Under the pieces are notes generated by a model. It saw only the letters and a program-made list of their open reading frames with translations, was not told where the DNA came from and made no database searches. DNA of 58,391 nt, counting the filler, from Nemertoderma westbladi (taxonomy: Eukaryota; Animalia; Xenacoelomorpha), in the NCBI GenBank assembly GCA_032718475.1. It is 2 parts of 2 records of this genome, joined end to end, with 100 filler letters (N's around TTAATTAATTAA, not from the genome) between each part and the next. Parts side by side here need not be neighbours in the genome. Positions count along the whole stretch, not along the records: positions 1 to 27,231 come from JAUCBJ010005504.1; 1 more part is not named here. One strand, written 5' to 3'. A program made the translations under genes and the position numbers. Below are positions 655 through 57,839 of this stretch, piece after piece (position 1 is the stretch's first letter; each line of letters opens with the position of its first letter).

Positions 655-1115
655 TTATTATATTTTCTACACTGGGAACACGGGGTCAGTCGGATCGTAA
701 TGCGGGCCGCTGCCGAGTTTCTTACTCCGAGCACGCAGTGCGGCGGGAAGAGTCAGACTTGCGTCGACGTCGACGAGGAATGCGATGCGATCTGGGTTTA
801 GCGGCGGACCGGATCGCCTTGGGGGAGGGCTGAACGGCTGCGTCTGACAGACGTGTATCGCACCAGATAACAGGATTACATTCTCTGCGGCGCGAAAGTG
901 GGAGTCCAATTCCAATTCATTATCGAATTGGGTCGGAAGCTGCGACCTGCTGGACCGGGAATTCTACGGGTACGGCAGTACGGGGATAATCCGTAGTGGT
1001 CGGCGATTCCGATTACGGACGGATAACCCCCCCCCCCCCCCCCCGAGGCATTTCGATCGAGTTTCTCGTTTTCTCGAGGCGGATAGAGACTTGGTTGTTT
1101 TGGGCGGGGATACCC
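655..1115 (+). repeat. GC-rich dispersed repeat module (copy 1; copy 2 at ~35150-35600)
   Basis: Collinear shared blocks with 35150-35600: ctacactgggaa, gtcggatcgtaatgc, cgtcgacg, gggtttagcggcg, cagacgtgtatcgcacc, tttcgatcgagtttctcgt, cggatagagacttg. Confidence 0.75.
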
Positions 1116-2200
1116 GTCCCGTACCCGTACCGAGAGCTCAGTCGGGGTGGATGGGTCGTCGGCAATCTTGCAAGAAGAAATTATCGGTCCGTTACTTTCG
1201 GTTATTGGTGTCTCGTGTCTCCATTGGAAAAAGCCGTTGAATCTGTTAATATAACGCTGGCCCTGCACGCTTTCAGCTTTCTAAAAGAATCAATCAGTGT
1301 CTGCTGCCTGCTGGTGGAACCTATCTAAATTATTACTGTGTACTGTGTTAGTCGACATTACTATAGTCGACAATTAACGCTTACCTTTAGGCACAATCCG
1401 AATTGAGCATGGAAGTGAAGGAGGGTCTTATTGAATTTATTGTGTATAATTAATTAATTATTAAATAATTTAAATTTGATTGTTTGTGCTTTAATATTGT
1501 ATTGCCTTTGATTGTTACATTTTCATAGTTGTTTTTATTTTATGTTTAATAGTAAAATCTGAGTGTAATAACATTCTAAAAATCTTCTTCAAAAAAAGTT
1601 ATTTTACTCGCCGTAAATAGTTTAGTGTTTTCGAATATTTATTACGTAACTAGAGAGCCGCTTAATACTACTTTATACATAGTCGGAGTTGTTGGCAATG
1701 GGGCTGATCGCGATGGGGAATTGACCCAAATACTGTCATCGGCAAATTATTAGCATGTCTCATGGTAAATTATTTATTAAGGGAAATTAGCAGGTTACGG
1801 TGGCACGTTATTCTAACAAAAAGGAATAAATAAAGCACAATAGAACAGGTTACAGTTTTATTTTAGGAGTAAACAGCTGTTATTTGCGTCGATTTTCTCC
1901 TGGAGAGGGAAGAATCTTCTATCTGCAATTAAGTGAAAATATTTCGACAACATTTCCTTTTATCATCATGGTCGCTCATACAGTACGGTAGCCAAAAGAT
2001 ATAATTCCTTTACATTATAAATAATTATAACAGTATAAACAACAAAATTAATTATAATTCTAAGCTATTTAGTCTTTACCATTTTTATACATTGACAAGA
2101 CTTTTTGGCCTTTAAAATAATTGATATTGGTTGAATAATTATTATTAAGATCAAAATATTCGGAATTCGGAGAAAGCAGTCATCGAAGCCATAGTTTTAG

Positions 2201-3840: not shown

Positions 3841-4445
3841 TTAATTATTGGTATTGCTGAGTGCCTCAGAAAGGTCGCAAGATTTCGACATGTCAATCAT
3901 TTGTACTTTGCACGATGTGTCAGCTTGGTCGGGACCAGTAGATCGTCTTTCCCGAAACGAGGTCTGTGGTCTGTTAAACGAGTTGAAGTTTAAGCCAGAA
4001 AACTTCATGTCAACCTTTGCGGAGCAAATAGCGGTGACCTGTTTCCAGAAGGAATATCGAAACAGTACAAACAGCCAGGGGACGATGGTTGCGTATATGT
4101 ACGTGAGACCATTGAGGGACATGCTGATCGCGTAGATGTGAGGTTGCGATTCATTGATGGCGCCGTAAGCGTGGGCGAGTTGTAGCACCCAGAAAGGGCA
4201 CCACATGGTGAAAAAGGAGAAAATAATCGCAACTACCATGTATGTGACTTGGCGTTTCTGTTGCCACTCAGCAAACTTCTGTTTCCTTAGGGAATGGTGT
4301 GCCGGCCTGTGGCACAAGGAGTTTAACATTAATCCATAGCTGATCGTGGATACGATGAGAGTGGAGGGGAAGGTCAATACGAATATTGCTGTGTAGTAGG
4401 GTCGGGCCAGCCATTCTGGGAAGGTGGCGACGCAAACAGCCAGGC
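3841..4445 (-). CDS. Rhodopsin-class peptide GPCR, 3' part (ECL2 to C-terminus); urotensin-II/MCH/somatostatin-receptor-like
   Basis: The frame is open upstream of the listed ORF: GLAVCVATFPEWLARPYYTAIFVLTFP (ECL2 Cys, TM5 Pro), then TM6 FFTMWCPFWVLQL, TM7 LTYIYATIVPWLF and helix 8 SFWKQV. Confidence 0.85.
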
Positions 4446-4448
4446 CTA

Positions 4449-4798
4449 GGGATCGATTGGATACTGATAAAATTGTAATTAAATATAATTGGTGGTTTGG
4501 TGCATTTGTCGTATAAAAACACTCATATATAATATACGCCTACTAGGCAAACCAAACATTCCTGTGATTGTCGCAGGATCTTATTATGTTTGCTTTATAG
4601 TAACTATCTCATGATGGCGCATAATGTTGTATCTTATTGGATTAGTCATACAATTTTCCTTTTTAAAAAGTAAATAAGACGATTGTTGCGAGTGACTCTT
4701 GGTGGTATAATGACTCACGGAAACATTATACATTATTATGTAAATTTTAGGTGTATCTCTGATTGGCTAATGGTAACCATGGTTATCCAATCGATTCC
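4449..4798. mobile_element. 350-bp MITE-like insertion in the GPCR, coincident with its only possible intron
   Basis: TA|GGGATCGATTGGATA at 4447-4463 and TATCCAATCGATTCC|TA at 4784-4800: 15-bp TIRs with 1 mismatch and TA duplicated on both sides. Confidence 0.8.
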
Positions 4799-5302
4799 TA
4801 TATTGCCGTGACCTTTTTCGCTGGTTATCACATTTGCGTAGACAACGCCGGGTGAAGCTGTTGCCACCGCAACCAACCAAATGATAAAGTTAGTCGCTGA
4901 CGAATATTTCCTGGCATTCTGTCTTAGAAGAATAAATGGATGAGATATGGCGAGGTAGCGTTGAAAACTCATTGCTGTTAGTGTCATAGAACTCACCATC
5001 ATAGCAACTAGATCCACCAATGAAATCGCCTTGCATCCGAATCCCCCGAAAGGCCATTCTGGCATGCTGTAATAGACTCCATATAAAATTCCTCCAATGA
5101 GGAAGCTGATGTTACTGATTATGAGATTGACAACAAAGTACCAGATAGAAGTGACCTTGGCTGAAACTATAAGTAGAGTAATCGCTATAGCGTTAGTTAC
5201 AATTCCAGGAACGCAAACAATTGCTGTAAATATTGGTGCAACTACAGACATGATTACCATGACATTGTCTCTATAGCCAACAACGTCCACAGTGTTATTC
5301 AT
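4798..5302 (-). CDS. Rhodopsin-class peptide GPCR, 5' part (N-terminus to TM4)
   Basis: N-glycosylation site MNNT; TM1 GIVTN; TM2 NLIISN; ECL1 WPFGGFGCK; TM3 VDLVAM...MSFQRYLAI (DRY variant); TM4 IWLVA...SP. Joined to the 3' part it gives about 369 aa. Confidence 0.85.
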
Positions 5303-5734
5303 TTTATATATATAATACCGGTAATATTAATAATATTTAATTATTATTAGTCAGAAACAACATCAACATCTAACATTATGCGCTCATGTTTACACGATTT
5401 TGGTTAGCGGATTAATCTTATTTCAAGGACAATAACAACGTAACTAATATCTAATCTCTATTATTTATTGCGACATTCAATACATTAGGTGGTATTTCAA
5501 ATTCCAGGTCAACCTTTTGCGTTTATTGCACACCCGAAATTTTAGAACACCTCTCATCCAACTTGGACCTCAAATATGAATTTGTTGAACTGATTGAATT
5601 GATGATATTATTGCAGCAATCAGATCATTGTACAATGGTTCCATCACATTTGTGTCTACTGCTCATGGTGACACAGATCCATTCAAGTCTTATGGGGAGT
5701 CCTTCAGTGTGACACACTTGCACCATTCTTATTC

Positions 5735-7010
5735 GTAATTGTGGTTGAATATGTTCTACGCATGTCCTTAGACCATCTTAATAAAGATGGGGTGATGGTA
5801 AAACCCCAGTAGTATAAGAAGCTATTAGCTTCTTGTACTGGGTACTGCTCACCCCCTACTGGTACAAGAAGATGAGGAAATCCAGCAAAGTACCTTACTG
5901 ATCTAGACTTTGCTGATGACGTAGGGGGTACTGGAGTAAGGCAACGATTTTGAACATTTCTTCGCGATTTTCGTGATCTTCGCAAACGTCGCGATTATTG
6001 CGAAGATTGAGAAAATCGCTAAATTTCGCAAAAGTCGCTATTTTCACGAAATTTTGTGTTTACCAAAGTTTACCAATTTTGTTAGATCGCGATGTTTGCG
6101 AAATTTCGCAATCTTCGCAAAAATTGCGATGTTTACGAAGATGGCGAAAATCGCGAAGAATTGTTCAAAATCTTTGCCCTAATGGGGTACTGTCAGAATC
6201 ACTAGAAGAAGCAGCCGAAAGGCTCCTCTTCTCATTGGAGCAGGTTGCTTCTAGTGTTGATCTTTTTGTAAATTCCAAGAAGACCACTATCATGGCAGTA
6301 AACCTAGACAGCCCTCAAGAATTGTCGGATCGTAGGGCATAAGCTCTAAGGATGGCTTTTTTGAGCATGTGGATGACTTCTGCTACTTGGGATCATGGAT
6401 CACAAAGTCAGGTGAAGACCTTCTGATACATACGGGGAAGGCATAGGCAGCGTTAAATAGTCTGTCCAGGATTTGTAAGTCCTACAGAATAAAACGGATC
6501 CTTAAGGTTCGATTATTTATGGCTGTAGTAGTACCAGTACTCTTATATGGGAGTCCTTGTTGGGCTCTAACTGCAGAGGATACCAAATCTCTGGATAGCA
6601 TTTTTACAAGAATGCTGCGCCGGGTCCATTGTGTCAAGTACAATGAACACATCTCCAATCAGACTCTATACAACATTGGAGGTGTTCCATTAATCTTCCC
6701 TAGATTGACACTTGAACGGAACCGCCTCCGCTTTGCAGGACATTGCTATCGTCATAATGACCAGCCAGTGCATAATCTTGTGCTTTGGCGCCATCATGGA
6801 GCGAATAAGCATGTTGAACACCCCATGACTTTCTTGAGACGAACCTTAAAGGTCACTGGCTTTGAAATTGCAGATGATCTAGCAAATGTCATGGGTGATA
6901 GGAAGTTGTGGAGGCGCGATTTTGTCGAAAGGCTGGCACACATTCTTAAAGTATATGTAAAATATATATAATGCATCTGCAATGCAGCATGCCGATCGTA
7001 GTAGTAGTAA
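5735..7010 (+). mobile_element. RTE-like LINE family A, 5'-truncated degenerate copy
   Basis: KYLTDLDFADDV RT catalytic motif at ~5890-5923; DDFCYLGSWI; VVPVLLYGSPCW; RLRFAGHC; (TAG)n tail at ~7000; stops and frameshifts present. Confidence 0.9.
5934..6184. mobile_element. Foldback MITE with 8-bp TSD (hAT/P-like) inserted into the RT
   Basis: About 80-bp imperfect inverted arms (aaggcaacgattttgaacatttcttcgcgattttcg / cgaaaatcgcgaagaattgttcaaaatctttgccct). GGGTACTG is duplicated at 5926-5933 and 6185-6192. Confidence 0.85.
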
Positions 7011-9396: not shown

Positions 9397-12300
9397 CCAG
9401 AGAGGTTGGTGCCCAGAGAGGTTGGTGCCCCCTTAGAGGTTGGTTCCCCATAGAGGTTGGTGCCCCCATAGAGGTTGGTGCCCCCATAGAGGTTGTTGCC
9501 CGATAGAGGTTGGTGCCCCAGAGATGTTGGTGCCCCATAGCGGTTGGTACCCCATAGAGGTTGGAGCCCCCTTAGAGGTTGGTGCCCCATAGAGGTTGGT
9601 GCTCCAGAGAGGTTGTTGCCCCAGAGAGGTTGGTACCCCATAGAGGTTGGTGCCCCAGAGAGGTTGGTGCCCAGAGAGGGTGGTGCACGTGAGAGGTTGG
9701 TGCCCGATAGAGGTTGGTGCCCCCATAGAGGTTGGTGCCCCAGAGAGGTTGGTGCCCCCATAGAGGTTGGTGCCCCAGAGAGGTTGGTGCCCCCTTAGAG
9801 GTTGGTGCCCCATAGAGGTTGGTGCCCCAGAGAGGTTGGTGCCCGATAGAGGTTGGTGCCCGATAGAGGTTGGTGCCCCCATAGAGGCTGGTGCCCTAGA
9901 GAGGTTGGTTCCCCCATAGAAGTTGGTGCCCCAGAGAGGTTGGTGCCCCCTTAGAGGTTGGTGCCCCATAGAGGTTGGTGCCCCAGAGAGGTTGGTGCCC
10001 GATAGAGGTTGGTGCCCGATAGAGGTTGGTGCCCCCATAGAGGTTGGTACCCCAGAGAGGTTGGTGCCCGATAGAGGTTGGTGCCCGATAGAGGTTGGTG
10101 CCCCCATAGAGGTTGGTGCCCCCATAGAGGTTGGTGCCCCAGAGAGGTTGGTGCCCCCTTAGAGGTTGGTGCCCCATAGAGGTTGGTGCCCCAGAGAGGT
10201 TGGTGCCCGATAGAGGTTGGTGCCCGATAGAGGTTGGTGCCCCCATAGAGGCTGGTGCCCTAGAGATGTTGGTGCCCCATAGAGGTTGTTACCCCGTAGA
10301 GGTTGGAGCCCCCATAAAGGTTGGTGCCCCATAGAGGTTGGTGCACAGAGAGGTTGGCGCCCAGAGAGGGTGGTGCCCATAGAGGTTGGTGCCCCATAGA
10401 GGTTGGTGCCCCAGAGAGGTTGGTACCCCATAGAGGTTGGTGCACAGAGAGGTTGGTGCCCCAGAGAGGTTGGTGTCCAGAGAGGGTGGTGCACCTGAGA
10501 GGATGGTGCCCCCATAAAGTTTGGTGCCCCAGAGAGGTTGGTGCCCAGAGAGGTTGGTGCCCCCTTAGAGGTTGGTTCCCCATAGAGGTTGGTGCCCCCA
10601 TAGAGGTTGGTGCCCCAGAGATGTTGGTGCCCCATAGCGATTGGTATCCAATAGAGGTTGGAGCCCCCTTAGAGGTTGGTGCCCCATAAAGGTTGGTGCC
10701 CCATAGAGGTTGGTGCCCCAGAGAGGTTGTTGCCCCAGAGCGGTTGGTACCCCATAGAGGTTGGTGCCCCAGAGAGGTTGGTGCCCAGAGAGGGTGGTGC
10801 ACCTGAGAGGTTGGTGCCCCCATAGAGGTTGGTGCCCCAGGGAGGTTGGTGCCCAGAGAGGTTGGTGCCCCCTTAGAGGTTGGTGCCCCATAGAGGTTGG
10901 TGGCCCCATAGAGGTTGGTGCCCTAGAGATGTTGGTGCCCCATAGAGGTTGGTACCCCATAGAGGTTGGAGCCCCCATAGAGGTTGGTGCCCCATAGAGG
11001 TTGATGCCCCAGAGAGGTTGGTGCCCAGAGAGGTTTGGCGCCCCAGAGAGGTTGGTGCCCAGAGAGGGTGGTGCCCCATAGAGGTTTGTGCCCCATAGAG
11101 GTTGGTGCCCCAGAGAGGTTGGTACCCCATAGAGGTTGGTGCACAGAGAGGTTGGTTCCCCAGAGAGGTTGGTGCCCCCATAGAGGTTGGTGCCCCAGAG
11201 AGGTTGGTGCCCAGAGAGGGTGGTGCACCTGAGAGGTTGGTGCCCCCATAGAGGTTGGTGCCCCAGAGAGGTTGGTGCCCAGAGAGGTTGGTGCCCCAGA
11301 GAGGTTGTTGCCCCAGAGAGGTTGGTGCCCCAGAGAGGTTGGTGCCCAGAGAGGTTGGTGCCCCAGAGAGGTTGGTGCCCCCGAGAGGTTGGTGTACCAT
11401 GAGGTTGGTGCCCAATAGAGGTTGGTGCCAAGAGAGGTTGTTGCCCCAGAGAGGTTGGTGCCCCAGAGAGGTTGATGCCCAGAGAGATTTGTGGCCCAGA
11501 GAGGTTGATGTCCCAGAGAGGTTGGTGCCCAGAGAGGTTGGTGCCCCAGATAGGTTGGTCTGAGAGAGGTTGGTGCCCCCGAGAGGTTGGTGTACAGAGA
11601 GGTTGGTGACCCATAGGGTTGGTGCCCAGAGAGGTTGGTGACCAGAGAGGTTGGTGACCCATGGAGGTTGGTGCCCAGAGAGGTTGGTGCCCCATAAAGG
11701 TTGGTGCCCCATAGAGGTTGGTGCCCCCAGAGAGTTTGGTGCCCAAGCGAGGTTGGTGCCACAGAGAGGTTGGTTCCCCATAGAGGTTGGTGCCCAGAGA
11801 GGTTGGTGCCTCATATAGTTTGGTGCCCCAGAGGGTTTGGTGCCCCAGCGAGGTAGGTGCCCCAGAGAGGTTGGTGCCCCATAGAGGTTGGTGCCCAGAG
11901 TGGTTGGTGCCCCATAGAGGTTGGTCCCCCACAGAGTTTGGTGCCCCAGCGAGGTTGGTGCCCCAGAGAGGTTGGTGCCCCAGAGCGGTTGGTGCCCCAT
12001 AGAGGTTGGTGCCCAGAGAGGTTGGTGCCCCATAGAGGTTGTTGCCCCATAGAGGTTGGTGCCCCAGAGAGTTTGGTGCCCAAGCGAGGTTGGTGCCACA
12101 GAGAGGTTGGTTCCCCATAGAGGTTGGTGCCCAGAGAGGTTGGTGCCCCATAGAGGTTGGTGCCCCATATAGTTTGGTGCCCCAGAGGGTTTGGTGCCCC
12201 AGCGAGGTTGGTGCCCCAGAGAGGTTGGTGCCCCATAGAGGTTGGTGCCCAGAGTGGTTGGTGCCCCATAGAGGTTGGTGCCAAAGAGAGGTTGATGCCC

Positions 12301-12961
12301 CATAGAGGTTGGTACCCTATAGAGGTTGGTCCCCCACAGAGTTTGGTGCACCAGCGAGGTTGGTGCTGCAGAGAGGGTGGTGCCCAGAGAGGGTGGTGCC
12401 CCAGAGAGGGTGGTGCCCCAGAGAGGGTGGTGCCCCAGAGAGGGTGGTGCCCCAGAGAGGTTGGTGCCCAGAGAGGGTGGTGCCCCAGAGAGGTTGGTGC
12501 CCCAGAGAGGTTGGTGCCCCATAGAGGTTGGTCCCCCACAGAGTTTGGTGCACCAGCGAGGTTGGTGCTGCAGAGAGGGTGGTGCCCAGAGAGGGTGGTG
12601 CCCCAGAAAGGGTGGTGCCCCAGAGAGGTTGGTGCCCCAGAGAGGTTGGTGCCCCATAGAGGTTGGTCCCCCACAGAGTTTGGTGCACCAGCGAGGTTGG
12701 TGCTGCAGAGAGGGTGGTGCCCAGAGAGGGTGGTGCCCCAGAGAGGGTGGTGCCCCAGAGAGGTTGGTGCCCAGAGAGGGTGGTGCCCCAGAGAGGTTTG
12801 TGCCCAGAGAGGTTGGTGCCCAGAGAGGTTGGAGCCACAGCGAGGACGGTGCCCCCATTGAGGTTGGTGCCCCAGAGACGTTGGTGCCCCAGAGACGTTG
12901 GTGCCGAGATAGGTTGGTGCCCAGAGTGGGTGGTGCCACAGAGAGGTTGGTGCCCATAGAG
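9397..12961. repeat. 16-18-bp G-rich minisatellite, ~3.6 kb
   Basis: Roughly 200 variable units of agaggttggtgcccc(a)(g/t) with blocks of repeated variants. It produces the GAPTSLGHQPLWGTNL pseudo-ORFs. Confidence 0.95.
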
Positions 12962-14263: not shown

Positions 14264-15350
14264 TACTACTACTACTACTACTAGGATCGGCATGCTGCAT
14301 TGCAGCTGCATTTTTAAGAATGCTGTGCCGGCTTGTCAACAAAATTGCACCGCCACAACTCCCTATCACCCATGACATTTGCTAGATCATCCGCATCTTT
14401 AAGGCCAGTGTCCTTTAAGATGCGTCTCAAGAAAGTCATGGGCTATCCACCATGCTTATTCACTCCATGAGGCTGCCAAAGTACAAGATTATGCACTGGC
14501 TGGTCCTCACGGCGAAAGCAATGTCCTGCAAAGCGGAGGCGATTTTGTTCTAGTGTCAAGCTTGGGGGAACCAATGAGACACCTCCAATGTTATATAGTG
14601 TCTGGTTGGAGATGTGTGCATTGTACTTGACACAATGAACCCGGCGTAGCATTCTTGTGAATGTGCCATCCAGAGATTTGGTCTCCTCAGCAGTTAGAGC
14701 CCAGCATGGACTCCCGTAGAGGAGTACTGGAACTACTGCTGCTCTAAATAATCGGACCTTAAGTTTCCGATTATTTCTCGGTGACTTCCAAATCCTGGAA
14801 AGCCTATTCAAGGCTGCCCATGCCTTTCCCTTACGTATTCGAAGGTCCTCACCTGACTTCCGGATCCATGATCCCAGGTAACAGAAGTCGTCCACATGCT
14901 CAAGCATACCATCCTTTGAGCTTATGCTCATCCGCTGAGGATCGTGCTGAGGACATTCAAAGTTAACTGTCAGAATTTTGGTCTTTCTGGAGTTAATAAA
15001 AAGACCAACACTAGAAGCAGCATGCTCTAATGAGTTGAGGAGCCGTTGGGCTCCCTCTAATGATTCTGAGAGTATCCCATGGTCCCACGACCTTTACGGA
15101 ACCCATTCTGATTTCCACGGAGCAGTCTCTCAATGGGATCCCTGATGCGATTTAATAGAATCCTATTGTATAGCTTTGCAGCAATCGAGATCAATGAGAT
15201 TCCCCGAAAAGAACCATAGAGTGTTAGGTTGCCCTTCTTCGGAACTGGCACCAACTTATTTGTTTTCATTTCTTGTGGGACTCTTGTTGTTCGGTACATG
15301 TCTACTATGATGGGATAGATGAGCTTTAAACACTCAGGTATTTTAAAGCT
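14264..15350 (-). mobile_element. RTE-like LINE family A copy with the RT core deleted
   Basis: VPKKGNL...FRGISL...KLYNRILLNRI...NQNGFRKGR joins directly to ILSESLEGA; then DDFCYLGSWI and RLRFAGHC; (TAG)n tail at 14264-14284. Homologous to 5735-7010 and 50640-51156. Confidence 0.9.
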
Positions 15351-17237
15351 CTCTCTGACAAAAAACAAAAAAAATATCACAATAAAACAAAAAAATATCT
15401 GTAAAACAGAAATCACTGTGTTTTTAAACTATCTTAGAAAGGTTATAGAGTTCCGTAAAGTCGTTGTAAGACCGCGTTGTATTCGAGCCATATTGAGTCA
15501 GTCATCACCACCGAGAAACGAAAACAATAAACAAGTTGAGTAAACACTTGGAAAAACTTTGTTAAAATACTTTTTAAAAGCCGTTTAGGAGCTCGCCGTG
15601 ACGAGAAATCCTTTTCAGTTCGATTGCTTTTCAGTCGAAATTACAGATTTATTATTCTCTTTCACCCCAAAATTTGGTGGATGTAGCTTTTCTAGAAAAT
15701 TTATTAACATTATATGCAATGCTATTTCTTGAGAGGAACTTTTTCAAACTATGTTCTTGAATTTAAAATATGCCTTTCATTTCTCGGTGGGATAAATATT
15801 TCTCCATTTGACGCAACACCGCCGCGGCCGCTATGAGGGAGGTGAATACCGCGGCCGCTCCTAAAGCCGCAGGCCATCGCTAACTATATAGGTTAACTTG
15901 GGATTCTGGGGGACTTTTCGATGAAGGAACTGACCAAATTTTTTTATTTTCTCACCAGGGGAGCGGCTCGGAATTCTAAGATATTAGCAACTCTAACATT
16001 ATTAAATCTAACCCTTCGACGGACACGGCGGACAAAAAACCGTCATTTTTTCGACAATTTTAAAATTTTTTTGAAAGGCGCTCTACAGTGGCTCGAAAAA
16101 ACCCTAGGTTATTGCTTAGCCGACGCCGGGATACGATAGAAGGGATTAATTAGTGAATTCGTTTTTTTTTTCAAAAAAGATTACCACGCCTTTTTTCCGA
16201 AAATGTCCGTCAAAGTTGAAAAAACGGACAAAATGACTTTGCGGGATCCGCTATAACTCGGCTAATATTAATCGTACGGGGACGAAAGTAACGCGGTTGG
16301 AAAGGGGAAGAGTGGTACTACCTTCGTATCGAATGGGGGTAAGATATTTATTAAAATTTCGGGTGGAAAAAGGGGCTGTAAATTTGTACGTTTTTGTCCG
16401 TCTTTTTTGGAAAACTTATTTCCGAAATGTTTAATTCGACAACGCGGGTAGGAATCCACTAATTCTTTTATGAAACTCGTAGAAGACCATTGGGGCTACG
16501 TTCCTATCGAATGGGGGTACAAAAAATATGTCGGCAATAGGGGCCAAAAAGGGCCAGAATTTGTAAAGTAGTTTTTATCGAATAATTTTTTATTTTTAAC
16601 TTTAGTTGGTTAAGGTACATTCTATACAGTCAATATCCATACGGGGAATTAAAATATGCTATCGGTTTTGCTCCAAGGATGATATTAAAAAAATGAGGGC
16701 CAAAATTATAATTTCGCGCTTCAAACTTGCTTCGCGGGAAATCGTCTAGCTCGAAAAGTACTTAACTTACGGGAGATTTGTTTACACAGACTTATAGTGC
16801 GTTAAATTATCTATCTAACAGCGTTAATCACAGCGCCGGAGGTATTATAAAACTGGAGCGACAGGCGATCGTGTGAAATATAATATTTATAAAAAGGGAC
16901 GAAAATTTTTTTTTTTTAACAAATCGCTATTCCGTTATAATTTAGCGTATTGCGCCAAAAGTACATTTAAAATTTAACAAATTACCTCCGCTATCTTTTA
17001 TCTTAACATATATAATTAAAATTACGAATTTTAAGGGTCGAAAAATATCGCGTTATTTTGGCCCTTTTTTTTAATTTTTTTGGGGCCAAAAATAACCCCC
17101 TCTCAAAAGATTAAGAAAAAAATTACGGCAAAGAATATACCAATTTTATTGAATTTGGACCACCAGAACCGAAGTTAGAGCGATTTTAGTGAAAAAATAA
17201 AAATATTTTTTTTTGCAAAAAAATTAAGAATGGTCAG

Positions 17238-22682: not shown

Positions 22683-23153
22683 CTACTTCGTGTCGGATAA
22701 ATATACTATGAATGGAGCCAGAGATATTTCCATTGAAGCATATCGGTTAGACATTTCAAGAACCTGTCTGTCTAGTGAGGCATGATCCTCCGATGTCATA
22801 ATAAAGGAATTAAGACATTCTTCTAGAGTTGGCCGCCATATCTTACGCTTAGAAGAGCCTGGGAGTTTCACCCACGTCCTGTTACACAACTTGAATGGAA
22901 GGCCCGCTAAGGCATGTCCTACGATAGAATCCTCGGTTTTATATTGTTTCGCCATTCTGCGATGTTCTCCAGTCATTGAGTGTAATATATCAAAACACAC
23001 ATCTTCAAAGGAAGACTCAAAAAGGACATTCGGGGATACAGTAGAAAAGTTATTGGTTTCAATAAGCTTCTTGAAGTCTATTAGGATACATATCGGATCT
23101 ATCAGGAAAATACTCTGATTATGACAGTGATATACAATGTAACGATCCATCAT
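22683..23153 (-). pseudogene. Probable fragment of the EnSpm accessory ORF, inverted relative to the transposase
   Basis: 156-aa protein-like ORF inside the TIRs ending ...WRPTLEECLNSFIM...LAPFIVYL. The family call is from recollection of animal EnSpm second ORFs and is unverified. Confidence 0.4.
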
Positions 23154-23203
23154 CGACAGGTATAAAAGAATTTTCTATTTTCAACCAACTGCCTTCATAT
23201 CAT

Positions 23204-24273
23204 GTGTCTAAAAATTCCACATTTGACATTATGCATGACCTATTTGAAGGTGTATGCATTTATGTCATTTCCGCAGCCCTATACAAATTTATATTTGTTG
23301 ATAAAATGTTCTCAGTGAACAGTTTTGCGTTCGAACATTCTTCCTCTGTGCCATTTTTTCAAGAAGAAAAACTTCGAAGTAAACACATTAATTTATCTGC
23401 GGTTCAAATGCTTAATTTTACACTTGGTTTGCCGTTACTAGTTGGTGATTTTGTAGCTGTTAATGATCCTGTATGGAAGGTGTTGTTGAAACTTAGAGAA
23501 ATTGTTATTTTTAGTATGGCACCGAATTTTAACCAAAGTGAAATATCATTATTTTCTGTATTAATTTGTGAATTTCTTGAAATATATGTACGTACATTCA
23601 ACCCTGATCGTTTACAATTTAAATTTCATAATTTGATTCACTACCCTACAGCAATTATTCAGGCAGGCCCTCTTCTAGGAATGTGGTCCATGAGATGTGA
23701 GGCAAAGCACGCCCCGCTTAAGAAAACAGCTTCAGTTGTGTGTAATTTTAAGAATATAGTTAAAACCTTATCAACGCGACATCAAATGTCCCAGGCATAT
23801 AAATTCTTTAGTTGTACAGGTGTGTAGATATAAGTGGTATAAGTGGTGTAGATATGCAAATTAAACAACCAACAGCAACTCAATTGCAAAGACTAACAGA
23901 AGTTTCAGAATTAAACTCCCTGTTGCTGGATTATGGCATTATAAGGGAGATAACGTCATGTTCAGCAATAGAGTTGTATTCGGTTGACTATTGCTTAGGA
24001 GATGTTGTATGTTTTGGTTTTGATATTTCTTCTCTACCTATATTTTGTTCTATTAATAATATATTAATTACCGATTCTAATCAGTATAAGATAATTGTTA
24101 GGCCATTGTTAGTTTTAGGTTATAGTGAGCATTTTCAGTCCTATGAAGTTGAAAAGTGTCCTACTAACCCATTGTCAGTTATTGATGAAATTGAACTACT
24201 CTTATCACCGTGGCCTCTCAAACTTCGTTCTAAGAAAAATAGCTTATATATTTCTCTGCGTCACAGGCTGTAA
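23204..24273 (+). pseudogene. CACTA/EnSpm transposase C-terminal half (frameshifted at ~23820)
   Basis: Motifs DIMHDLFEGV, KFHNLIHYP and GPLLGMWSMRCEAKH. The N-terminal part is missing. A local duplication (gtgtagatat) lies at the frame change. Confidence 0.85.
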
Positions 24274-26938: not shown

Positions 26939-27231
26939 CTACTACTACTACTAGGTCGAGCAAACTCGGACAGTGGAAATGAGATCCTTCCAGGCTTCCC
27001 GATTCTCCATAGTTGTCGCAATTTCGTTTCTCCCAAGTTCAGTATCCCTTTCAAGTTGATCTATATATGTTATGGCAGGTCGTCCACGACTACGCTTTCC
27101 ATGAGTTGGTTGCCAGAGAAGTAGATCTGGTATGACCTCGTCTTTACTTCGCCAGCAGTGCCCACTGAATCTTAATCTGCGTTCACGGAGGGTGGTTGAT
27201 ACAGGTGGTATTGTACCATAAAGCTCGGCAG
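26939..27231 (-). mobile_element. RTE-like LINE family B 3' end, cut by the contig end
   Basis: Nearly identical reverse complement of ~53630-53913; (TAG)n tail at 26939-26953. Confidence 0.92.
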
Positions 27232-27331
27232 NNNNNNNNNNNNNNNNNNNNNNNNNNNNNNNNNNNNNNNNNNNNTTAATTAATTAANNNNNNNNNNNNN
27301 NNNNNNNNNNNNNNNNNNNNNNNNNNNNNNN
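27232..27331. other. Synthetic contig linker (N44-TTAATTAATTAA-N44)
   Basis: Exactly 100 nt, symmetric N runs around a six-frame stop palindrome. Confidence 0.95.
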
Positions 27332-29146: not shown

Positions 29147-32100
29147 ATTACCGTGTAATGTTGTAATTGTTATATAACACATTACTGTAATGTTGTAATT
29201 GTTATATAACACATTACTGTAATGTTTTAATTGTTATATAACACATTACTGTAATGTTGTAATTGTTATATAACACATTACTGTAATGTTATAATTGTTA
29301 TATCACACATTACTGTAATGTTGTAATTGTTGTATAACACATTACTGTAATGTAGTAATTGTTATATAACACATTACTGTAATGTTGTAATTGTTATATA
29401 ACACATTACTGTAATGTTGTAATTGTTATATAACATATTACTGTAATGTTGTAATTGTTATATAACACATTACTGTAATGTTGTAATTGTTATATAACAC
29501 ATTACTGTAATGTTGTAATTGTTATATAACACATTACTGTAATGTAGTAATTGTTATATAACACATTACTCTAATGTTGTAATTGTTATATAACACATTA
29601 CTGTAATGTTGTATATTGTTATATAACACATTACTGTAATGTTGTAATTGTTATATAACACATTACTGTAATGTTGTAACTGTTATATTACACATTACTG
29701 TAATGTTGTAATTGTTATATAACACAAAACTGTAATGTTGTAATTGTTATATAACACATTACTGTAATGTTGTAATTGTTATATAACACATTACTGTAAT
29801 GTTGTAACTGTTATATTACACATTACTGTAATGTTGTAATTGTTATATAACACATTACTGTAATGTTGTAACTGTTATATTACACATTACTGTAATGTTG
29901 TAATTGTTATATTATACATTACTGTAATGTTGTAATTGTTATATAACACAAAACTGTAATGTTGTAATTGTTATATAACACATTACTGTAATGTTGTAAT
30001 TGTTATATAACATATTACTGTAATGTTGTAATTGTTATATAACACATTACTGTAATGTTGTAATTGTTATATAACACATTACTGTAATGTTGTATATTGT
30101 TATATTGTTATATAACACATTACTCTAATGTTGTAATTGTTATATAACACATTACTATAATGTTGTAATTGTTATATTACACATTACTGTAATGTTGTAA
30201 TTGTTATATTATACATTACTGTAATGTTGTAATTGTTATATAACACATTACTGTAATATAGTAATTGTTATATAACACATTACTGTAATGTTGTAATTGT
30301 TATATAACACATTATTGTAATGTGTAATTGTTATATTATACATTACTGTAATGTTGTAATTGTTATATAACACATTACTGTAATATAGTAATTGTTATAT
30401 AACACATTACTGTAATGTTGTAATTGTTATATTATACATTACTGTAATGTTGTAATTGTTATATAACACATTACTGTAATATAGTAATTGTTATATAACA
30501 CATTACTGTAATGTTGTAATTGTTATATAACACATTACTGTAATATAGTAATTGTTATATAACACATTACTGTAATGTTTTAATTGTTATATAACACATT
30601 ACTGTAATGTTGTAATTGTTATATAACACATTACTGTAATGTTGTAATTGTTATATAACATATTACTGTAATGTTGTAATTGTTATATAACACATTACTG
30701 TAATGTTGTAATTGTTATATAACATATTACTGTAATGTTGTAATTGTTATATAACACATTACTGTAATGTTGTAATTGTTATATAACACATTACTGTAAT
30801 GTTGTATATTGTTATATTGTTATATAACACATTACTCTAATGTTGTAATTGTTATATAACACTACAGTAATTACAGTAATGTGTTATATAACAATTACAA
30901 CATTACAGTCATGTATTATATAACAATTACTACATTACAGTAATGTGTTATATAACAATTACAACATTACAGTAATGTAGTAATTGTTATATAATACATG
31001 ACTGTAATGTTGTAATTGTTATATAACACATTACTGTAATGTTGTAATTGTTATATTACACATTACTGTAATGTTGTAATTGTTATATTATACATTACTG
31101 TAATGTCGTAATTGTTATATAACACATTACTGTAATGTTGTAATTGTTATATAACACATTACTGTAATGTTGTAATTGTTATATAACACATTACTGTAAT
31201 GTTGTAATTGTTATATAACACATTACTGTAATGTAGTAATTGTTATATAACACATTACTCTAATGTTGTAATTGTTATATAACACATTACTGTAATGTTG
31301 TATATTGTTATATAACACATTACTGTAATGTTGTAATTGTTATATAACACATTACTGTAATGTTGTAACTGTTATATTACACATTACTGTAATGTTGTAA
31401 TTGTTATATAACACAAAACTGTAATGTTGTAATTGTTATATAACACATTACTGTAATGTTGTAATTGTTATATAACACATTACTGTAATGTTGTAACTGT
31501 TATATTACACATTACTGTAATGTTGTAATTGTTATATAACACATTACTGTAATGTTGTAACTGTTATATTACACATTACTGTAATGTTGTAATTGTTATA
31601 TTATACATTACTGTAATGTTGTAATTGTTATATAACACAAAACTGTAATGTTGTAATTGTTATATAACACATTACTGTAATGTTGTAATTGTTATATAAC
31701 ATATTACTGTAATGTTGTAATTGTTATATAACATATTACTGTAATGTTGTAATTGTTATATAACACATTACTGTAATGTTGTATATTGTTATATTGTTAT
31801 ATAACACATTACTCTAATGTTGTAATTGTTATATAACACATTACTATAATGTTGTAATTGTTATATTACACATTACTGTAATGTTGTAATTGTTATATTA
31901 TACATTACTGTAATGTTGTAATTGTTATATAACACATTACTGTAATATAGTAATTGTTATATAACACATTACTGTAATGTTGTAATTGTTATATAACACA
32001 TTATTGTAATGTGTAATTGTTATATTATACATTACTGTAATGTTGTAATTGTTATATAACACATTACTGTAATATAGTAATTGTTATATAACACATTACT

Positions 32101-34639
32101 GTAATGTTGTAATTGTTATATTATACATTACTGTAATGTTGTAATTGTTATATAACACATTACTGTAATATAGTAATTGTTATATAACACATTACTGTAA
32201 TGTTGTAATTGTTATATAACACATTACTGTAATATAGTAATTGTTATATAACACATTACTGTAATGTTTTAATTGTTATATAACACATTACTGTAATGTT
32301 GTAATTGTTATATAACACATTACTGTAATGTTGTAATTGTTATATAACATATTACTGTAATGTTGTAATTGTTATATAACACATTACTGTAATGTTGTAA
32401 TTGTTATATAACATATTACTGTAATGTTGTAATTGTTATATAACACATTACTGTAATGTTGTAATTGTTATATAACACATTACTGTAATGTTGTATATTG
32501 TTATATTGTTATATAACACATTACTCTAATGTTGTAATTGTTATATAACACTACAGTAATTACAGTAATGTGTTATATAACAATTACAACATTACAGTCA
32601 TGTATTATATAACAATTACTACATTACAGTAATGTGTTATATAACAATTACAACATTACAGTAATGTAGTAATTGTTATATAATACATGACTGTAATGTT
32701 GTAATTGTTATATAACACATTACTGTAATGTTGTAATTGTTATATTACACATTACTGTAATGTTGTAATTGTTATATTATACATTACTGTAATGTCGTAA
32801 TTGTTATATAACACATTACTGTAATGTTGTAATTGTTATATAACACATTACTGTAATGTTGTAATTGTTATATAACATATTACTGTAATGTTGTAATTGT
32901 TATATAACACATTACTGTAATGTTGTAATTGTTATATAACACATTACTGTAATGTTGTATATTGTTATATTGTTATATAACACATCACTCTAATGTTGTA
33001 ATTGTTATATAACACATTACTGTAATGTTGTAATTGTTATATAACACATTACTGTAATGTTATAATTGTTATATAACACATTACTGTAATATAGTAATTG
33101 TTATATAACACATTACTGTAATGTTGTAATTGTTATATTGTTATATAACACATTACTCTAATGTTGTAATTGTTATATAACACATTACTGTAATGTTGTA
33201 ATTGTTATATAACATATTACTGTAATGTTGTAATTGTTATATAACACATTACTGTAATGTTGTAATTGTTATATAACACATTACTGTAATGTTGTATATT
33301 GTTATATTGTTATATAACACATTACTCTAATGTTGTAATTGTTATATAACACATTACTGTAATGTTGTAATTGTTATATAACACATTACTGTAATGTTAT
33401 AATTGTTATATAACACATTACTGTAATATAGTAATTGTTATATAACACATTACTGTAATGTTGTAATTGTTATATTGTTATATAACACATTACTCTAATG
33501 TTGTAATTGTTATATAACACATTACTGTAATGTTGTAATTGTTATATAACATATTACTGTAATGTTGTAATTGTTATATAACACATTACTGTAATGTTGT
33601 AATTGTTATATAACACATTACTGTAATGTTGTATATTGTTATATTGTTATATAACACATTACTCTAATGTTGTAATTGTTATATAACACATTACTGTAAT
33701 GTTGTAATTGTTATATAACATATTACTGTAATGTTGTAATTGTTATATAACACATTACTGTAATGTTGTAATTGTTATATAACACATTACTGTAATGTTG
33801 TATATTGTTATATTGTTATATAACACATTACTCTAATGTTGTAATTGTTATATAACACATTACTGTAATGTTGTAATTGTTATATAACATATTACTGTAA
33901 TGTTGTAATTGTTATATAACACATTACTGTAATGTTATAATTGTTATATAACACATTACTGTAATATAGTAATTGTTATATAACACATTACTGTAATGTT
34001 GTAATTGTTATATAACACATTACTGTAATGTTGTAATTGTTATATAACACATTACTCTAATGTTGTAATTGTTATATAACACATTACTGTAATGTTATAA
34101 TTGTTATATAACACATTACTGTAATATAGTAATTGTTATATAACACATTACTGTAATGTTGTAATTGTTATATAACACATTACTGTAATGTTGTAATTGT
34201 TATATAACACATTACTCTAATGTTGTAATTGTTATATAACACATGACTGTAATGTTATAATTGTTATATAACACATTACTGTAATATAGTAATTGTTATA
34301 TAACACATTACTGTAATGTTGTAATTGTTATATAACACATTACTGTAATGTTGTAATTGTTATATAACACATTACTGTAATGTTATAATTGTTATATCAC
34401 ACATTACTGTAATGTTGTGATTGTTATATAACACATTACTGTAATGTAGTAATTGTTATATAATACATGACTGTAATGTTGTAATTGTTATATAACACAT
34501 TACTGTAATGTTGTAATTGTTATATTACACATTACTGTAATGTTGTAATTGTTATATAACACATTACTGTAATGTTATAATTGTTATATCACACATTACT
34601 GTAATGTTGTAATTTTTATATAACACATTACTGTAATGT
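29147..34639. repeat. 32-bp AT-rich satellite, left block, with a 1689-bp higher-order duplication and two local inversions
   Basis: Unit acacattactgtaatgttgtaattgttatata; inverted segments begin at ~30862 and ~32551. Confidence 0.95.
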
Positions 34640-36145
34640 GGGGCGAGCGACGAAAGTAAGCGAGCTTACCATACAGGTACCACTAACTCAATCGGTGTCT
34701 GTTGTTCTGTTGTTCTGTTGATCTGTTGTGTCCAATTTTAAACGTTAATAACTCAGCCAAATGTTAATGAAATTTAACCAAACTTGGTACACATGTAGTC
34801 TGGCAAAAGTTTAGAAATTTTCCAAGTTGAATTTGCGTGGGGTCTTCGTGCAGCATCTGTGTAACTGTCTTACAGTTATAATAAATTAATCTACCCAAAA
34901 ATTATTAGGCTTAGCATCAGCTGGTTGCTAGGAGACTACAGGATTACAGTACGGTACCGGTACTGTTAACTGTTACAGTGGTACAGAGTTACCGGTACCG
35001 TCTTCAGGTCGTTGGCAAAGCCATCTAAACAACTTCTTCATCGAAACAGCTTCCGACAGTCCGATGTATCTGGACCCGAGCAGCCGAGTGGCATCAAGAT
35101 GCGATTAAACTGAGGAATAAATACTACGGAATTGCTTGCTTGTCAGTAAGATTCTATTTACTACACTGGGAATACGGCGGTCGGTCGGATCGTAATGCAG
35201 GCCAGTGCCAAGTTCCTCATGCCTCACTCAGGCCACCCACCTTGGAGTGCGGTGGGAAGAGTCCGACTTACGTCGACGACTGGACGAATCGACGAGGATT
35301 GCGATTTGGGTTTAGCGGCGACCCGGACAGCCGGATCCTGGGATCGCCTGGGGGAAATTGTTGAAAGTCGGGCAGACGTGTATCGCACCGTATTACGTTC
35401 TCTGCCACGCGAAAGTGTGAGTCGAATTCGTTGTCGAATTGGATCGGAAGCTGCGGGAATTCTACTGTTATACGGGAATAAACCGCAGCGGTCCGGTGAC
35501 TACGGACGGATACTGGGATGAGCAGGTATTTCGATCGAGTTTCTCGTATAGAGAATCTCGGATAGAGACTTGATTGACGTGTTGGGCGGAGATACCGATA
35601 GCTCTGACGATCTGTTTATAATTATGTTTTTTTGTTATTGTTATTTATTTATACTCGGAATTTGAGGAAGTCGACATTGATGAAGTAATGAAGCGCTTTA
35701 TATTGGACATAAAATACCAGGTAGTATTCAAAGAGACCACGATGATACTTATTTTATGGATAATAATCATGGTAATTATTGGAGGACTACATTCGGGGAG
35801 GTTTAGTTATTCCTCCCGATTAGCCGATAGTCTTGTATTTTGTGTTACATTTTTATATTTCTTATACAACAGGATGTAACGCCCTTGTCATCTTGTGTAA
35901 AACAAACTGTATTTACAGCCGATATTTTTCTAATATTAACAACTGGCTGACTGGGCTCAGCTAGTGCCATCTGAATATTTAAGCAAATTTCCTCTCTTCT
36001 TTGATTTATTCTTATTGGCAGTTTGGTTAAATTTCTTATTTATTGATTTGAACTTCTTAAGTACCGATTTTTGGATTGAATTGCTCAATTTTAATCTGTA
36101 TCTGATAACTGAGCCTCGTCCTGCGCGAAGGCCCCACGAACGTGT
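34640..36145 (+). mobile_element. Helentron/DINE-like element (1.5 kb) inserted into the 32-bp satellite
   Basis: The satellite breaks at ...gtaatgt|GGGGCGAGC and resumes after GCCCCACGAACGTGT|tgtaattg, an in-register insertion between two Ts with no TSD. (CTGTT)n-like tract near the 5' end. Confidence 0.7.
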
Positions 36146-37891: not shown

Positions 37892-40800
37892 ATTTATTGC
37901 TATAAACACAATAACACACCAATACGTATACACTCACCTCACACTGCTATATTTATTGCTATAAACACAATAACACACCAATACGTATACACTCACCTCA
38001 CACTGCTATATTTATTGCTATAAACACAATAACACACCAATACGTATACACTCACCTCACACTGCTATATTTATTGCTATAAACACAATAACACACCAAT
38101 ACGTATACACTCACCTCACACTGCTATATTTATTGCTATAAACACAATAACACACCAATACGTATACACTCACCTCACACTGCTATATTTATTGCTATAA
38201 ACACAATAACACACCAATACGTATACACTCACCTCACACTGCTATATTTATTGCTATAAACACAATAACACACCAATACGTATACACTCACCTCACACTG
38301 CTATATTTATTGCTATAAACACAATAACACACCAATACGTATACACTCACCTCACACTGCTATATTTATTGCTATAAACACAATAACACACCAATACGTA
38401 TACACTCACCTCACACTGCTATATTTATTGCTATAAACACAATAACACACCAATACGTATACACTCACCTCACACTGCTATATTTATTGCTATAAACACA
38501 ATAACACACCAATACGTATACACTCACCTCACACTGCTATATTTATTGCTATAAACACAATAACACACCAATACGTATACACTCACCTCACACTGCTATA
38601 TTTATTGCTATAAACACAATAACACACCAATACGTATACACTCACCTCACACTGCTATATTTATTGCTATAAACACAATAACACACCAATACGTATACAC
38701 TCACCTCACACTGCTATATTTATTGCAATAAACACAATAACACACCAATACGTATACACTCACCTCACACTGCTATATTTATTGCAATAAACACAATAAC
38801 ACACCAATACGTATACACTCACCTCACACTGCTATATTTATTGCTATAAACACAATAACACACCAATACGTATACACTCACCTCACACTGCTATATTTAT
38901 TGCTATAAACACAATAACACACCAATACGTATACACTCACCTCACACTGCTATATTTATTGCAATAAACACAATAACACACCAATACGTATACACTCACC
39001 TCACACTGCTATATTTATTGCAATAAACACAATAACACACCAATACGTATACACTCACCTCACACTGCTATATTTATTGCTATAAACACAATAACACACC
39101 AATACGTATACACTCACCTCACACTGCTATATTTATTGCTATAAACACAATAACACACCAATACGTATACACTCACCTCACACTGCTATATTTATTGCTA
39201 TAAACACAATAACACACCAATACGTATACACTCACCTCACACTGCTATATTTATTGCTATAAACACAATAACACACCAATACGTATACACTCACCTCACA
39301 CTGCTATATTTATTGCTATAAACACAATAACACACCAATACGTATACACTCACCTCACACTGCTATATTTATTGCTATAAACACAATAACACACCAATAC
39401 GTATACACTCACCTCACACTGCTATATTTATTGCTATAAACACAATAACACACCAATACGTATACACTCACCTCACACTGCTATATTTATTGCTATAAAC
39501 ACAATAACACACCAATACGTATACACTCACCTCACACTGCTATATTTATTGCTATAAACACAATAACACACCAATACGTATACACTCACCTCACCCTGCT
39601 ATATTTATTGCTATAAACACAATAACACACCAATACGTATACACTCACCTCACACTGCTATATTTATTGCTATAAACACAATAACACACCAATACGTATA
39701 CACTCACCTCACACTGCTATATTTATTGCTATAAACACAATAACACACCAATACGTATACACTCACCTCACCCTGCTATATTTATTGCTATAAACACAAT
39801 AACACACCAATACGTATACACTCACCTCACCCTGCTATATTTATTGCTATAAACACAATAACACACCAATACGTATACACTCACCTCACACTGCTATATT
39901 TATTGCTATAAACACAATAACACACCAATACGTATACACTCACCTCACACTGCTATATTTATTGCTATAAACACAATAACACACCAATACGTATACACTC
40001 ACCTCACACTGCTATATTTATTGCTATAAACACAATAACACACCAATACGTATACACTCACCTCACACTGCTATATTTATTGCTATAAACACAATAACAC
40101 ACCAATACGTATACACTCACCTCACACTGCTATATTTATTGCTATAAACACAATAACACACCAATACGTATACACTCACCTCACCCTGCTATATTTATTG
40201 CTATAAACACAATAACACACCAATACGTATACACTCACCTCACACTGCTATATTTATTGCTATAAACACAATAACACACCAATACGTATACACTCACCTC
40301 ACACTGCTATATTTATTGCTATAAACACAATAACACACCAATACGTATACACTCACCTCACACTGCTATATTTATTGCTATAAACACAATAACACACCAA
40401 TACGTATACACTCACCTCACACTGCTATATTTATTGCTATAAACACAATAACACACCAATACGTATACACTCACCTCACACTGCTATATTTATTGCTATA
40501 AACACAATAACACACCAATACGTATACACTCACCTCACACTGCTATATTTATTGCTATAAACACAATAACACACCAATACGTATACACTCACCTCACACT
40601 GCTATATTTATTGCTATAAACACAATAACACACCAATACGTATACACTCACCTCACCCTGCTATATTTATTGCTATAAACACAATAACACACCAATACGT
40701 ATACACTCACCTCACACTGCTATATTTATTGCTATAAACACAATAACACACCAATACGTATACACTCACCTCACACTGCTATATTTATTGCTATAAACAC

Positions 40801-57547: not shown

Positions 57548-57839
57548 GTACAAATAGTAATCGCGCAAATAAACATGTTGGTTGAGAAACAGCTGAGATA
57601 TTGGCGTAAAAAAATTATTTGTTCTACATCTGTGCGAGGCTGTGGGATTTCAAACATTCTAGAACATAGTTGTAAAAATAAAATTTAACCAAAACATAAT
57701 TCTAGACTTGAACAACACCTACAGAACCTACATGCGCCAAGATTCCAGCATTCTACATATAGGAAGACCGATAATTGGTTCCCCCATGACATTATAATTT
57801 AAATGCATAGAACCAAGAATAAATTAAATATCACAGGAC

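What the first reader, a model, noticed from the sequence alone, without database searches (positions are those of the whole stretch)
4446..4812. Transposon-derived intron candidate (introner-like, possibly GA-AG) in a GPCR gene
Seen: the gap between the two GPCR coding blocks is exactly a TIR element (TA|GGGATCGATTGGATA...TATCCAATCGATTCC|TA). Deleting 352 nt (the element plus one TA) fuses ...GGC AAT ATA to GGC CTG GCT GTT TGC, giving an uninterrupted EKGHGNIGLAVC in ECL2, so the ancestral gene was intronless here. Both junctions read TAGG on the coding strand, so the same 352 nt can be excised as 4797-4446. That intron would start GA and end TAG, with the AG built from the duplicated TA plus the flanking G. 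Two in-frame canonical options also exist using AAG|GTCACG at 4812: to the AG at 4446 (loses 5 aa) or to ttttatcAG at 4464 (gives KVSNRSLG). Both halves have no stops or frameshifts, while the unspliced form stops at 4736. Known: Introner elements make introns by co-opting TSD or flanking splice sites, and the larvacean Fritillaria has MITE-derived non-canonical introns. Inference: this may be one member of an intron-generating MITE family.
Basis: partly seen in the sequence, partly recalled or inferred. Interest (0 to 1): 0.8.

Follow-up and report, generated by a model that had tools for sequence, protein, structure and literature searches.

The report
Small transposon splitting a receptor gene
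A 350-base insert with the end repeats and two-base scar of a small transposon splits the coding sequence of an animal peptide-receptor-like gene; it likely cripples this gene copy, though it could be spliced out in frame, and no second copy turned up to suggest an intron-making family.

Summary
A 350-bp non-coding element (4449-4798) with 15-bp inverted ends (14/15) and TA on both sides splits a rhodopsin-family GPCR in extracellular loop 2. Removing 352 nt restores a 369-aa frame; 1 of 3000 local shuffles gives such a pair. It is very likely a MITE insertion into a site that had no intron.

The introner and GA-AG reading is unsupported. No second copy was found. The GA-AG register appears at 22 of 148 simulated TA insertions, and some in-frame option at 61 of 148. 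The GA donor pairs poorly with U1 and lies in a predicted hairpin. The best donor lies after the stop codon and gives a 188-aa truncation.

Odds: null or weak allele 0.5; one-off GT-AG intron from 4812, 0.27; SOS-type excision 0.09; exact GA-AG 0.07; older intron 0.05. Splicing is untested. The scan noted six similar exon-inserted MITEs in other genomes.

The parts
4799..5302 (-). GPCR 5' coding block (Met1 to Ile168; TM1-TM4 and start of ECL2)
   Evidence: (7tm_1 E 3.8e-20, profile 2-130)
3841..4446 (-). GPCR 3' coding block (Gly-Leu-Ala-Val-Cys of ECL2, TM5-TM7, C-tail, stop)
   Evidence: (7tm_1 E 1.1e-08, profile 137-255)
4449..4798 (.). 350-bp AT-rich non-coding TIR element (MITE-like), GC 0.33 against 0.42 and 0.49 in the coding blocks
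4449..4463 (+). terminal inverted repeat, arm 1 (15 bp)
4784..4798 (-). terminal inverted repeat, arm 2 (one mismatch, at position 3)
4447..4448 (.). TA, inferred target-site duplicate; its A plus the next G form the AG at 4447-4446 on the coding strand
4799..4800 (.). TA, inferred target site (inside the Ile168 codon)
4736..4738 (-). in-frame stop inside the element; the unspliced product is 188 aa with 4 TM helices
4807..4815 (-). weak cryptic GT donor (first intron base 4812), in frame with acceptors 4464 and 4446, outside the predicted TIR stem
4713..4721 (-). consensus-like GT donor (first intron base 4718) inside the element, downstream of the stop; its use keeps the truncation
4464..4483 (-). 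T-rich acceptor carried by the element (AG at 4465-4464), just inside the TIR, with a branch-like motif 19 nt upstream

Best explanation
A 350-base non-coding element with 15-base inverted ends and TA on both sides interrupts extracellular loop 2 of a rhodopsin-family receptor gene; it is likely a cut-and-paste transposon (MITE) that landed at that TA, and it likely leaves this allele null or weak, making a truncated 188-residue, four-helix product. Shown: anatomy, the in-frame stop, and the open frames on both sides. Inferred: insertion by a TA-targeting transposase, a site without an intron before the insertion, and a recent date. Predicted: if the spliceosome acts, it favours the donor at 4718 and the acceptor at 4464, which removes 255 nt but keeps the stop. 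Any in-frame rescue would be minor and would come from the weak donor at 4812 or from imprecise hairpin-triggered excision.
For: The insertion itself is about 0.9 likely: TIR and TA pair, 1 of 3000 local shuffles, frame restored by 352 nt, colinear Pfam halves. For the null outcome: the donor at 4718 pairs best with U1 of 9 scored (-5.8 kcal/mol, against -4.1 for 4812 and -2.9 for the GA at 4797; crude duplex scores). Its use leaves the 188-aa product. In-frame options are common by chance: 61 of 148 simulated TA insertions in three coding sequences of the window have one. A recent knockout would still show open frames: P(intact) is 0.58-0.80 at 0.5% divergence. PMC12779559 (discussion) says exonic DNA transposon alleles in C. 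elegans are rare, which suggests they are purged despite RNA-level excision.
Against: Both halves are open, and the TIRs differ at 1 of 15 positions. If the TIRs were perfect at insertion and the gene has been dead since, P(no stop or frameshift) is only 0.04-0.18 (flat prior). Only 5 of 148 simulated sites have both an exact AG-ending register and an in-frame GT-AG option, as this site does (search windows were set after seeing the real site, and the two options share the same AG). All three in-frame products give a TM4-Pro to ECL2-Cys spacing (17, 22, 23) within the 16-29 of 18 of 19 relatives, so rescue would be tolerated. The element carries a good acceptor in the right orientation.
Confidence: 0.5

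Rival explanations
1. One-off intron gain with canonical sites: the spliceosome uses the cryptic exonic GT at 4812 with the element's AG at 4464 (370 aa) or the AG made from the TA duplicate at 4446 (364 aa), so a receptor with a slightly changed loop 2 is made.
For: Both joins are in frame and stop-free. 4812 and 4464 both lie outside the predicted TIR stem. 4464 has a T-rich tract and a branch-like motif. The loop lengths fit relatives. The intact frame with a TIR mismatch is mild support. Introners that co-opt exonic sites and add or delete codons are described (PMC9860276 passages).
Against: The 4812 donor lacks the +3 purine and +5 G and scores below the competing donor at 4718. Such options arise at 44 of 148 random TA sites in this orientation.
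Confidence: 0.27
2. Spliceosome-independent SOS-type excision: the paired TIRs in the pre-mRNA trigger imprecise cutting near the ends and RTCB ligation, and the in-frame fraction rescues the receptor because loop 2 tolerates indels.
For: 16 of 17 TA-plus-TIR positions pair with predicted probability 0.67-1.0. The region folds at z -3.6, with 0 of 100 shuffles as stable. SOS splicing is triggered by ITR pairing regardless of sequence, acts on exonic insertions and rescues only in poorly conserved regions (PMC12779559).
Against: The stem here is 15-17 bp against 54 nt for Tc1. The paper leaves the ITR requirements undetermined. [quoted passage not shown]
Confidence: 0.09
3. One reading: exact excision as a GA-AG intron (4797-4446), possibly one member of an intron-generating MITE family that targets TA followed by G.
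For: The register restores the sequence exactly. The single TIR mismatch falls at donor position +2. GA donors occur in some Introner families (0-40%, PMC9860276 passage).
Against: The register arises at 22 of 148 random TA sites in either orientation. The donor mismatches U1 at +2, +4, +5 and +6. Both splice sites are inside or at the edge of the predicted stem. No second copy was found. Introners were found in only two animal groups among 835 animal and plant genomes.
Confidence: 0.07
4. An older ordinary GT-AG intron (4812-4446 or 4812-4464), with the inverted repeat arising by chance or through later replacement of the intron body.
For: The 4446 acceptor falls in the Gly four residues before the ECL2 Cys, which aligns with the same Gly of the delta opioid receptor. 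OPRM1 has an intron between TM4 and TM5 (PMC8534031 passage). That it is the same codon and phase is my recollection and was not confirmed (search 59 found 0 papers).
Against: The TA-TIR pair arises in 1 of 3000 shuffles. Without the element only 15 nt would remain between GT and AG, too short for an animal intron (recalled). The frame is open from Met1 through TM4, so the opioid-type intron after TM1 is absent.
Confidence: 0.05
5. Assembly or amplification artefact joining a repeat into the gene.
For: No reads could be laid to exclude it.
Against: Clean TA duplication and TIR ends at both junctions are not expected of a random chimera (inference).
Confidence: 0.02

Closest known systems
MITEs of the IS630-Tc1-mariner (ITm) type
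   Same: Short, non-coding, TIRs, TA duplication (ITm elements generally make TA duplications: PMC10045372 passage).
   Different: Only one copy seen. The ends begin GG rather than the CAG or CTC I recall for many Tc1/mariner and Stowaway elements. PHIS-group elements make 0-4 bp duplications, so the superfamily is not settled.
Introners (Gozashti et al. 2022, PMC9860276; Micromonas and Aureococcus MITE introners; review PMC11282704)
   Same: TIR and TSD element in coding sequence, with splice sites available from the TSD, flank or element; GA donors and codon gains or losses are known among them.
   Different: Introner families need at least four similar annotated introns. Here there is one copy and no splicing evidence, and the best donor is unproductive.
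Fritillaria borealis MITE-derived non-canonical introns
   Same: Animal, TIR and TSD at intron ends (review PMC11282704).
   Different: Those are mostly AG-AC and AG-AT and are handled by a changed spliceosome. Nothing tested here shows such a spliceosome in this animal.
SOS splicing of exonic Tc1, Tc3, Tc4 and HSMAR2 (Zhao et al. 2025, PMC12779559)
   Same: Exonic DNA transposon whose ITRs are predicted to pair in the mRNA, in a loop that tolerates indels.
   Different: The TIR is 15 bp against 54 nt for Tc1; machinery and junctions untested here.
Somatostatin, MCH, opioid and galanin-type peptide GPCRs; nearest amphioxus 'MCHR1'-named proteins P0003 and P0004
   Same: 7tm_1 fold, ECL2 Cys, TM6 CWxP-like motif; 36-37% identity over the C-terminal half.
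   Different: It has Asn for the TM2 Asp, QRY for DRY and VPxxF for NPxxY (motif names recalled). It keeps 21 of 30 family-conserved columns, inside the 0.44-0.97 range of 19 relatives. No orthologue was found.

Membership tests
MITE / non-autonomous TIR transposon | terminal inverted repeats at both ends | tested here: met
   14 of 15 match; 1 of 3000 local shuffles
MITE / non-autonomous TIR transposon | target-site duplication | tested here: met
   TA on both sides, and removal of element plus one TA restores the frame; no empty site seen
MITE / non-autonomous TIR transposon | short and without a transposase | tested here: met
   350 bp; the only stop-to-stop frame of 60 aa or more wholly inside is 60 aa
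MITE / non-autonomous TIR transposon | many dispersed copies and an autonomous partner | not testable with these tools
   no genome held; one copy in 58 kb; 0 paired hits in metagenome and viral contigs
IS630-Tc1-mariner superfamily | TA duplication | tested here: met
IS630-Tc1-mariner superfamily | terminal 11 bases align with a classified family (Repbase rule) | not testable with these tools
   no repeat library on hand
Introner | removed from mRNA as an intron | not testable with these tools
   no reads could be laid
Introner | at least four similar introns with similarity reaching both boundaries | not testable with these tools
   criterion from PMC9860276; no genome; single copy in window
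Introner | splice sites supplied by element, TSD or flank at the ends | tested here: inconclusive
   options exist but arise at 61 of 148 random TA sites, and the best donor is unproductive
Introner | orthologue or allele lacking the intron at this site | tested here: inconclusive
   no relative above 37% identity; no motif hit in the xenacoelomorph GPCR supplement
SOS-splicing substrate | inverted repeats that pair within an exon | tested here: met
   predicted only
SOS-splicing substrate | heterogeneous non-GU-AG junctions that depend on AKAP17A, CAAP1 and RTCB | not testable with these tools
   needs RNA and genome
Rhodopsin-family GPCR (Pfam 7tm_1) | score above the curated cut-off | tested here: met
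   72.9 and 35.4 bits against 30.5

The most novel reading that the evidence does not exclude
A TA-targeting MITE family that makes exact introns whenever it lands at TA followed by G: its own second and third bases give a GA or GG donor, the duplicated TA plus the flanking G gives the acceptor, and the TIR hairpin brings the ends together. That would be an introner family in a further animal lineage, here adding an intron to a receptor gene that had none.
Probability: 0.05. Interest if true: 0.7.

Novelty: new member of a known kind. Interest (0 to 1): 0.28.

Why it matters
As it stands this is an ordinary exonic MITE insertion. Its value is as a test locus. One RT-PCR would separate four fates: null allele, new canonical intron, exact GA-AG intron, and hairpin-triggered SOS excision. 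The site is a loop where all in-frame products look tolerable. If exact excision and further exonic copies were found, it would add an animal lineage to the very few with introners (PMC9860276). If junctions were heterogeneous, it would show SOS splicing on a natural coding exon with only a 15-bp repeat.

Tried and rejected
No genome is held for the window. The search for sequencing runs over 3850-5320, kind RNA, listed no RNA holder; this is no evidence either way, and no reads were laid. Other copies: BLAST of the element against the window gave nothing better than E 0.06. The TIR pattern with up to 3 mismatches gave the 2 arms plus 2 chance-level hits (2.31 expected). The paired-TIR pattern gave 0 hits in metagenome contigs and 0 in viral contigs. 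The single-arm pattern gave 85 metagenome loci. None of the 85 had a partner arm within the flank held (at most 2 mismatches, or 3 with TA), and BLAST matches to the element reached 37 bases at most, so I take them as chance. The inverted-repeat listing was swamped by satellites. Protein searches for an orthologue or transcript product: the N-terminal half found none at 295-2000 aa or 92-294 aa; the C-terminal half found 31 hits, best 37%; the unspliced 188-aa product is not in the collection. The supplement of PMC6188537 holds xenacoelomorph GPCR proteins (control motifs hit), but motifs of this receptor did not hit and it is not in part 7 of 12; long rows there are cut and one supplement store gave no answer. 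Rfam gave one hit at 11 bits against a cut-off of 80, rejected. Alternative parses with a 3-bp or 4-bp duplication put the arms out of register and were rejected by inspection. Loop-2 length does not discriminate between splice products. No AATAAA or ATTAAA lies on the coding strand in the element or in the 840 nt after the stop; uninformative. PMC10565955 (passages) and PMC13326754 (passages) gave nothing on GA-AG use. dN/dS could not be computed without an orthologue. Folding of spliced products was not attempted.

Full report
Observation. The minus strand holds two open blocks of a rhodopsin-family GPCR, 5302-4799 (168 aa) and 4446-3844 (201 aa). They hit Pfam 7tm_1 at profile positions 2-130 and 137-255. 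Between them lie 350 bases (4449-4798) with arms matching at 14 of 15 positions and TA on each side. Removing 352 nt gives a 369-aa frame. Five registers are equivalent, and only 4797-4446 ends in AG; it starts GA. The canonical joins 4812>4446 and 4812>4464 give 364 and 370 aa, and the unspliced frame ends after 188 aa. A TA-flanked arm pair of this quality is unique in the 36,310 unmasked bases. It appeared in 1 of 30 whole-window shuffles and 1 of 3000 local shuffles.

The element. It is short, AT-rich (GC 0.33 against 0.42 and 0.49) and has no coding capacity to speak of. A TA duplication is typical of IS630-Tc1-mariner elements (PMC10045372 passages), but the superfamily cannot be fixed without a repeat library (rule in PMC4455052 passages). 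No genome is held. No second copy was found in the window, in metagenome contigs (0 paired hits; 0 of 85 single-arm loci with a partner arm) or in viral contigs. Those collections are not expected to hold this animal, so copy number is untested rather than shown to be low.

The gene. The nearest proteins are amphioxus 'MCHR1'-named and hemichordate somatostatin-receptor-like sequences at 37% or less. PDB hits are MCH, somatostatin, opioid, angiotensin and NPFF receptors. The protein has Asn for the TM2 Asp, QRY for DRY and VPxxF for NPxxY (motif names recalled). It keeps 21 of 30 columns conserved among the 19 relatives of 300-460 aa (of 31 hits), inside their own 0.44-0.97 range. It is therefore a divergent receptor and not an old pseudogene: P(intact) at 10% neutral divergence is 0.025 or less. 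The TNF-receptor-like and Smr-domain genes in the window are also single open frames, which fits a receptor gene without introns but does not prove it. Earlier unreviewed notes point to a xenacoelomorph worm; I did not test that.

Is it spliced? This could not be tested directly, so I tested how special the signals are. I inserted the element in silico at 148 TA sites of three coding sequences of the window. An exact AG-ending register arose at 22 (GA in this orientation, GG in the other), an in-frame GT-AG option at 44 (27 reversed), both at 5, and either at 61. The windows of 15 and 21 nt were chosen after seeing the real site. The GA-AG option is thus what any insertion at TA followed by G gives. 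In crude U1 duplex scores of 9 donors, the best is 4718 (-5.8 kcal/mol), inside the element and after the stop; 4812 scores -4.1 and the GA at 4797 scores -2.9. Using 4718 with either acceptor leaves the 188-aa product. The TIRs are predicted to pair in the pre-mRNA (z -3.6, 0 of 100 shuffles; 16 of 17 positions at 0.67-1.0). The stem covers the GA donor and the tract before 4446, but leaves 4812 and 4464 outside.

Results against the null reading. Both halves are open and the arms carry a mismatch. If the arms were identical at insertion and the gene dead since, P(intact) is 0.04-0.18; if the mismatch is inborn, this says nothing. The element brings a good acceptor in the right orientation. 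All in-frame products have loop spacings (17, 22, 23) inside the 16-29 of 18 of 19 relatives; the nineteenth was misaligned at the Cys. These points keep rescue of some kind at a little over 0.4.

Mechanism and odds. I commit to a recent TA-targeted MITE insertion that leaves a null or weak allele (0.5). Rivals are a one-off canonical intron from 4812 (0.27), SOS-type excision (0.09), exact GA-AG excision (0.07), an older intron (0.05) and an artefact (0.02). The odds are my judgement and not a computed result. SOS splicing (PMC12779559, parts 1-4 of 13 and passages) removes exonic DNA transposons from mRNA when their ITRs pair, is imprecise, rarely uses GU-AG, and rescues only in tolerant regions. 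It was shown with 54-nt Tc1 ITRs among others, and the length needed is left open. The older-intron rival rests on the 4446 acceptor falling in the Gly that aligns with the delta opioid receptor's Gly four residues before the loop Cys. OPRM1 has an intron between TM4 and TM5 (PMC8534031 passages); the exact codon is recalled and was not confirmed. Without the element only 15 nt separate GT from AG, so I rate this low.

Comparison with known systems. Introners co-opt TSD or flanking splice sites, can add or delete codons, use GA donors in some families, and are defined as families of at least four similar introns. Among 835 animal and plant genomes they were found in two animal groups (PMC9860276 passages). 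Fritillaria's MITE-derived introns are mostly AG-AC and AG-AT (PMC11282704, parts 1-2 of 5). New introns in otherwise intronless fish GPCRs are known (PMC3151243 passages). This locus would work like an introner only if it is spliced, and membership fails for want of evidence rather than on a test not met. I make no claim that the element is absent from print: my ten paper searches used general terms. PMC10565955, PMC13326754 and PMC6188537 were seen as passages, the last also as supplement searches and part 7 of 12. Supplements of the other papers were not opened.

Verdict. A real transposon-like insertion in a receptor exon, a new member of a known kind. The scan has six similar notes from other genomes, and none overlapping this window was shown. 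Interest 0.28. The introner-family reading has probability about 0.05 and would deserve 0.7.

Noticed in passing
window 47312-48457 (-): Single-frame 381-aa TNF-receptor-like gene (TNFR_c6 E 1.7e-08; weak death-domain hit E 0.17, below cut-off). The exact sequence is not in the protein collection.
   Followed up: partly
window 49523-50257 (+): Single-frame Smr-domain gene (E 1.1e-08).
   Followed up: partly
window 22686-24270: Frames 23075-23824 (+), 23812-24270 (+) and 22686-23174 (-) have no Pfam hit better than E 0.2; motifs in the first recall an EnSpm/CACTA-type transposase (recalled, untested).
   Followed up: partly
window 52300-53904 (+); 14446-15428 (-); 6447-6968 (+); 50668-51180 (+); 26954-27283 (-); 57304-57684 (-): Non-LTR retrotransposon reverse-transcriptase frame (RVT_1 E 7.8e-35) and several fragments of two such families.
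   Followed up: no
window 9397-12955, 29154-34639, 37892-42794, 43747-47341, 54359-56830: Large tandem satellites; about 22 kb of the 58 kb is masked as tandem repeat or N. The 44895-47341 array begins right at the 3' end of the TNFR-like frame.
   Followed up: no
window 4774-4785: A perfect 12-bp palindrome abuts and overlaps the inner end of one TIR arm; CCAAT-like words recur in both arms and inside the element (by inspection).
   Followed up: no
window 670-1325 and 35029-35615: Two GC-rich stretches whose translations resemble each other, suggesting a dispersed repeat.
   Followed up: no
window 3841-5302 (-): The receptor lacks three activation motifs at once (TM2 Asp, DRY Asp, NPxxY Asn and Tyr) yet is open, so it may be an atypical or non-signalling receptor (inference).
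   Followed up: partly
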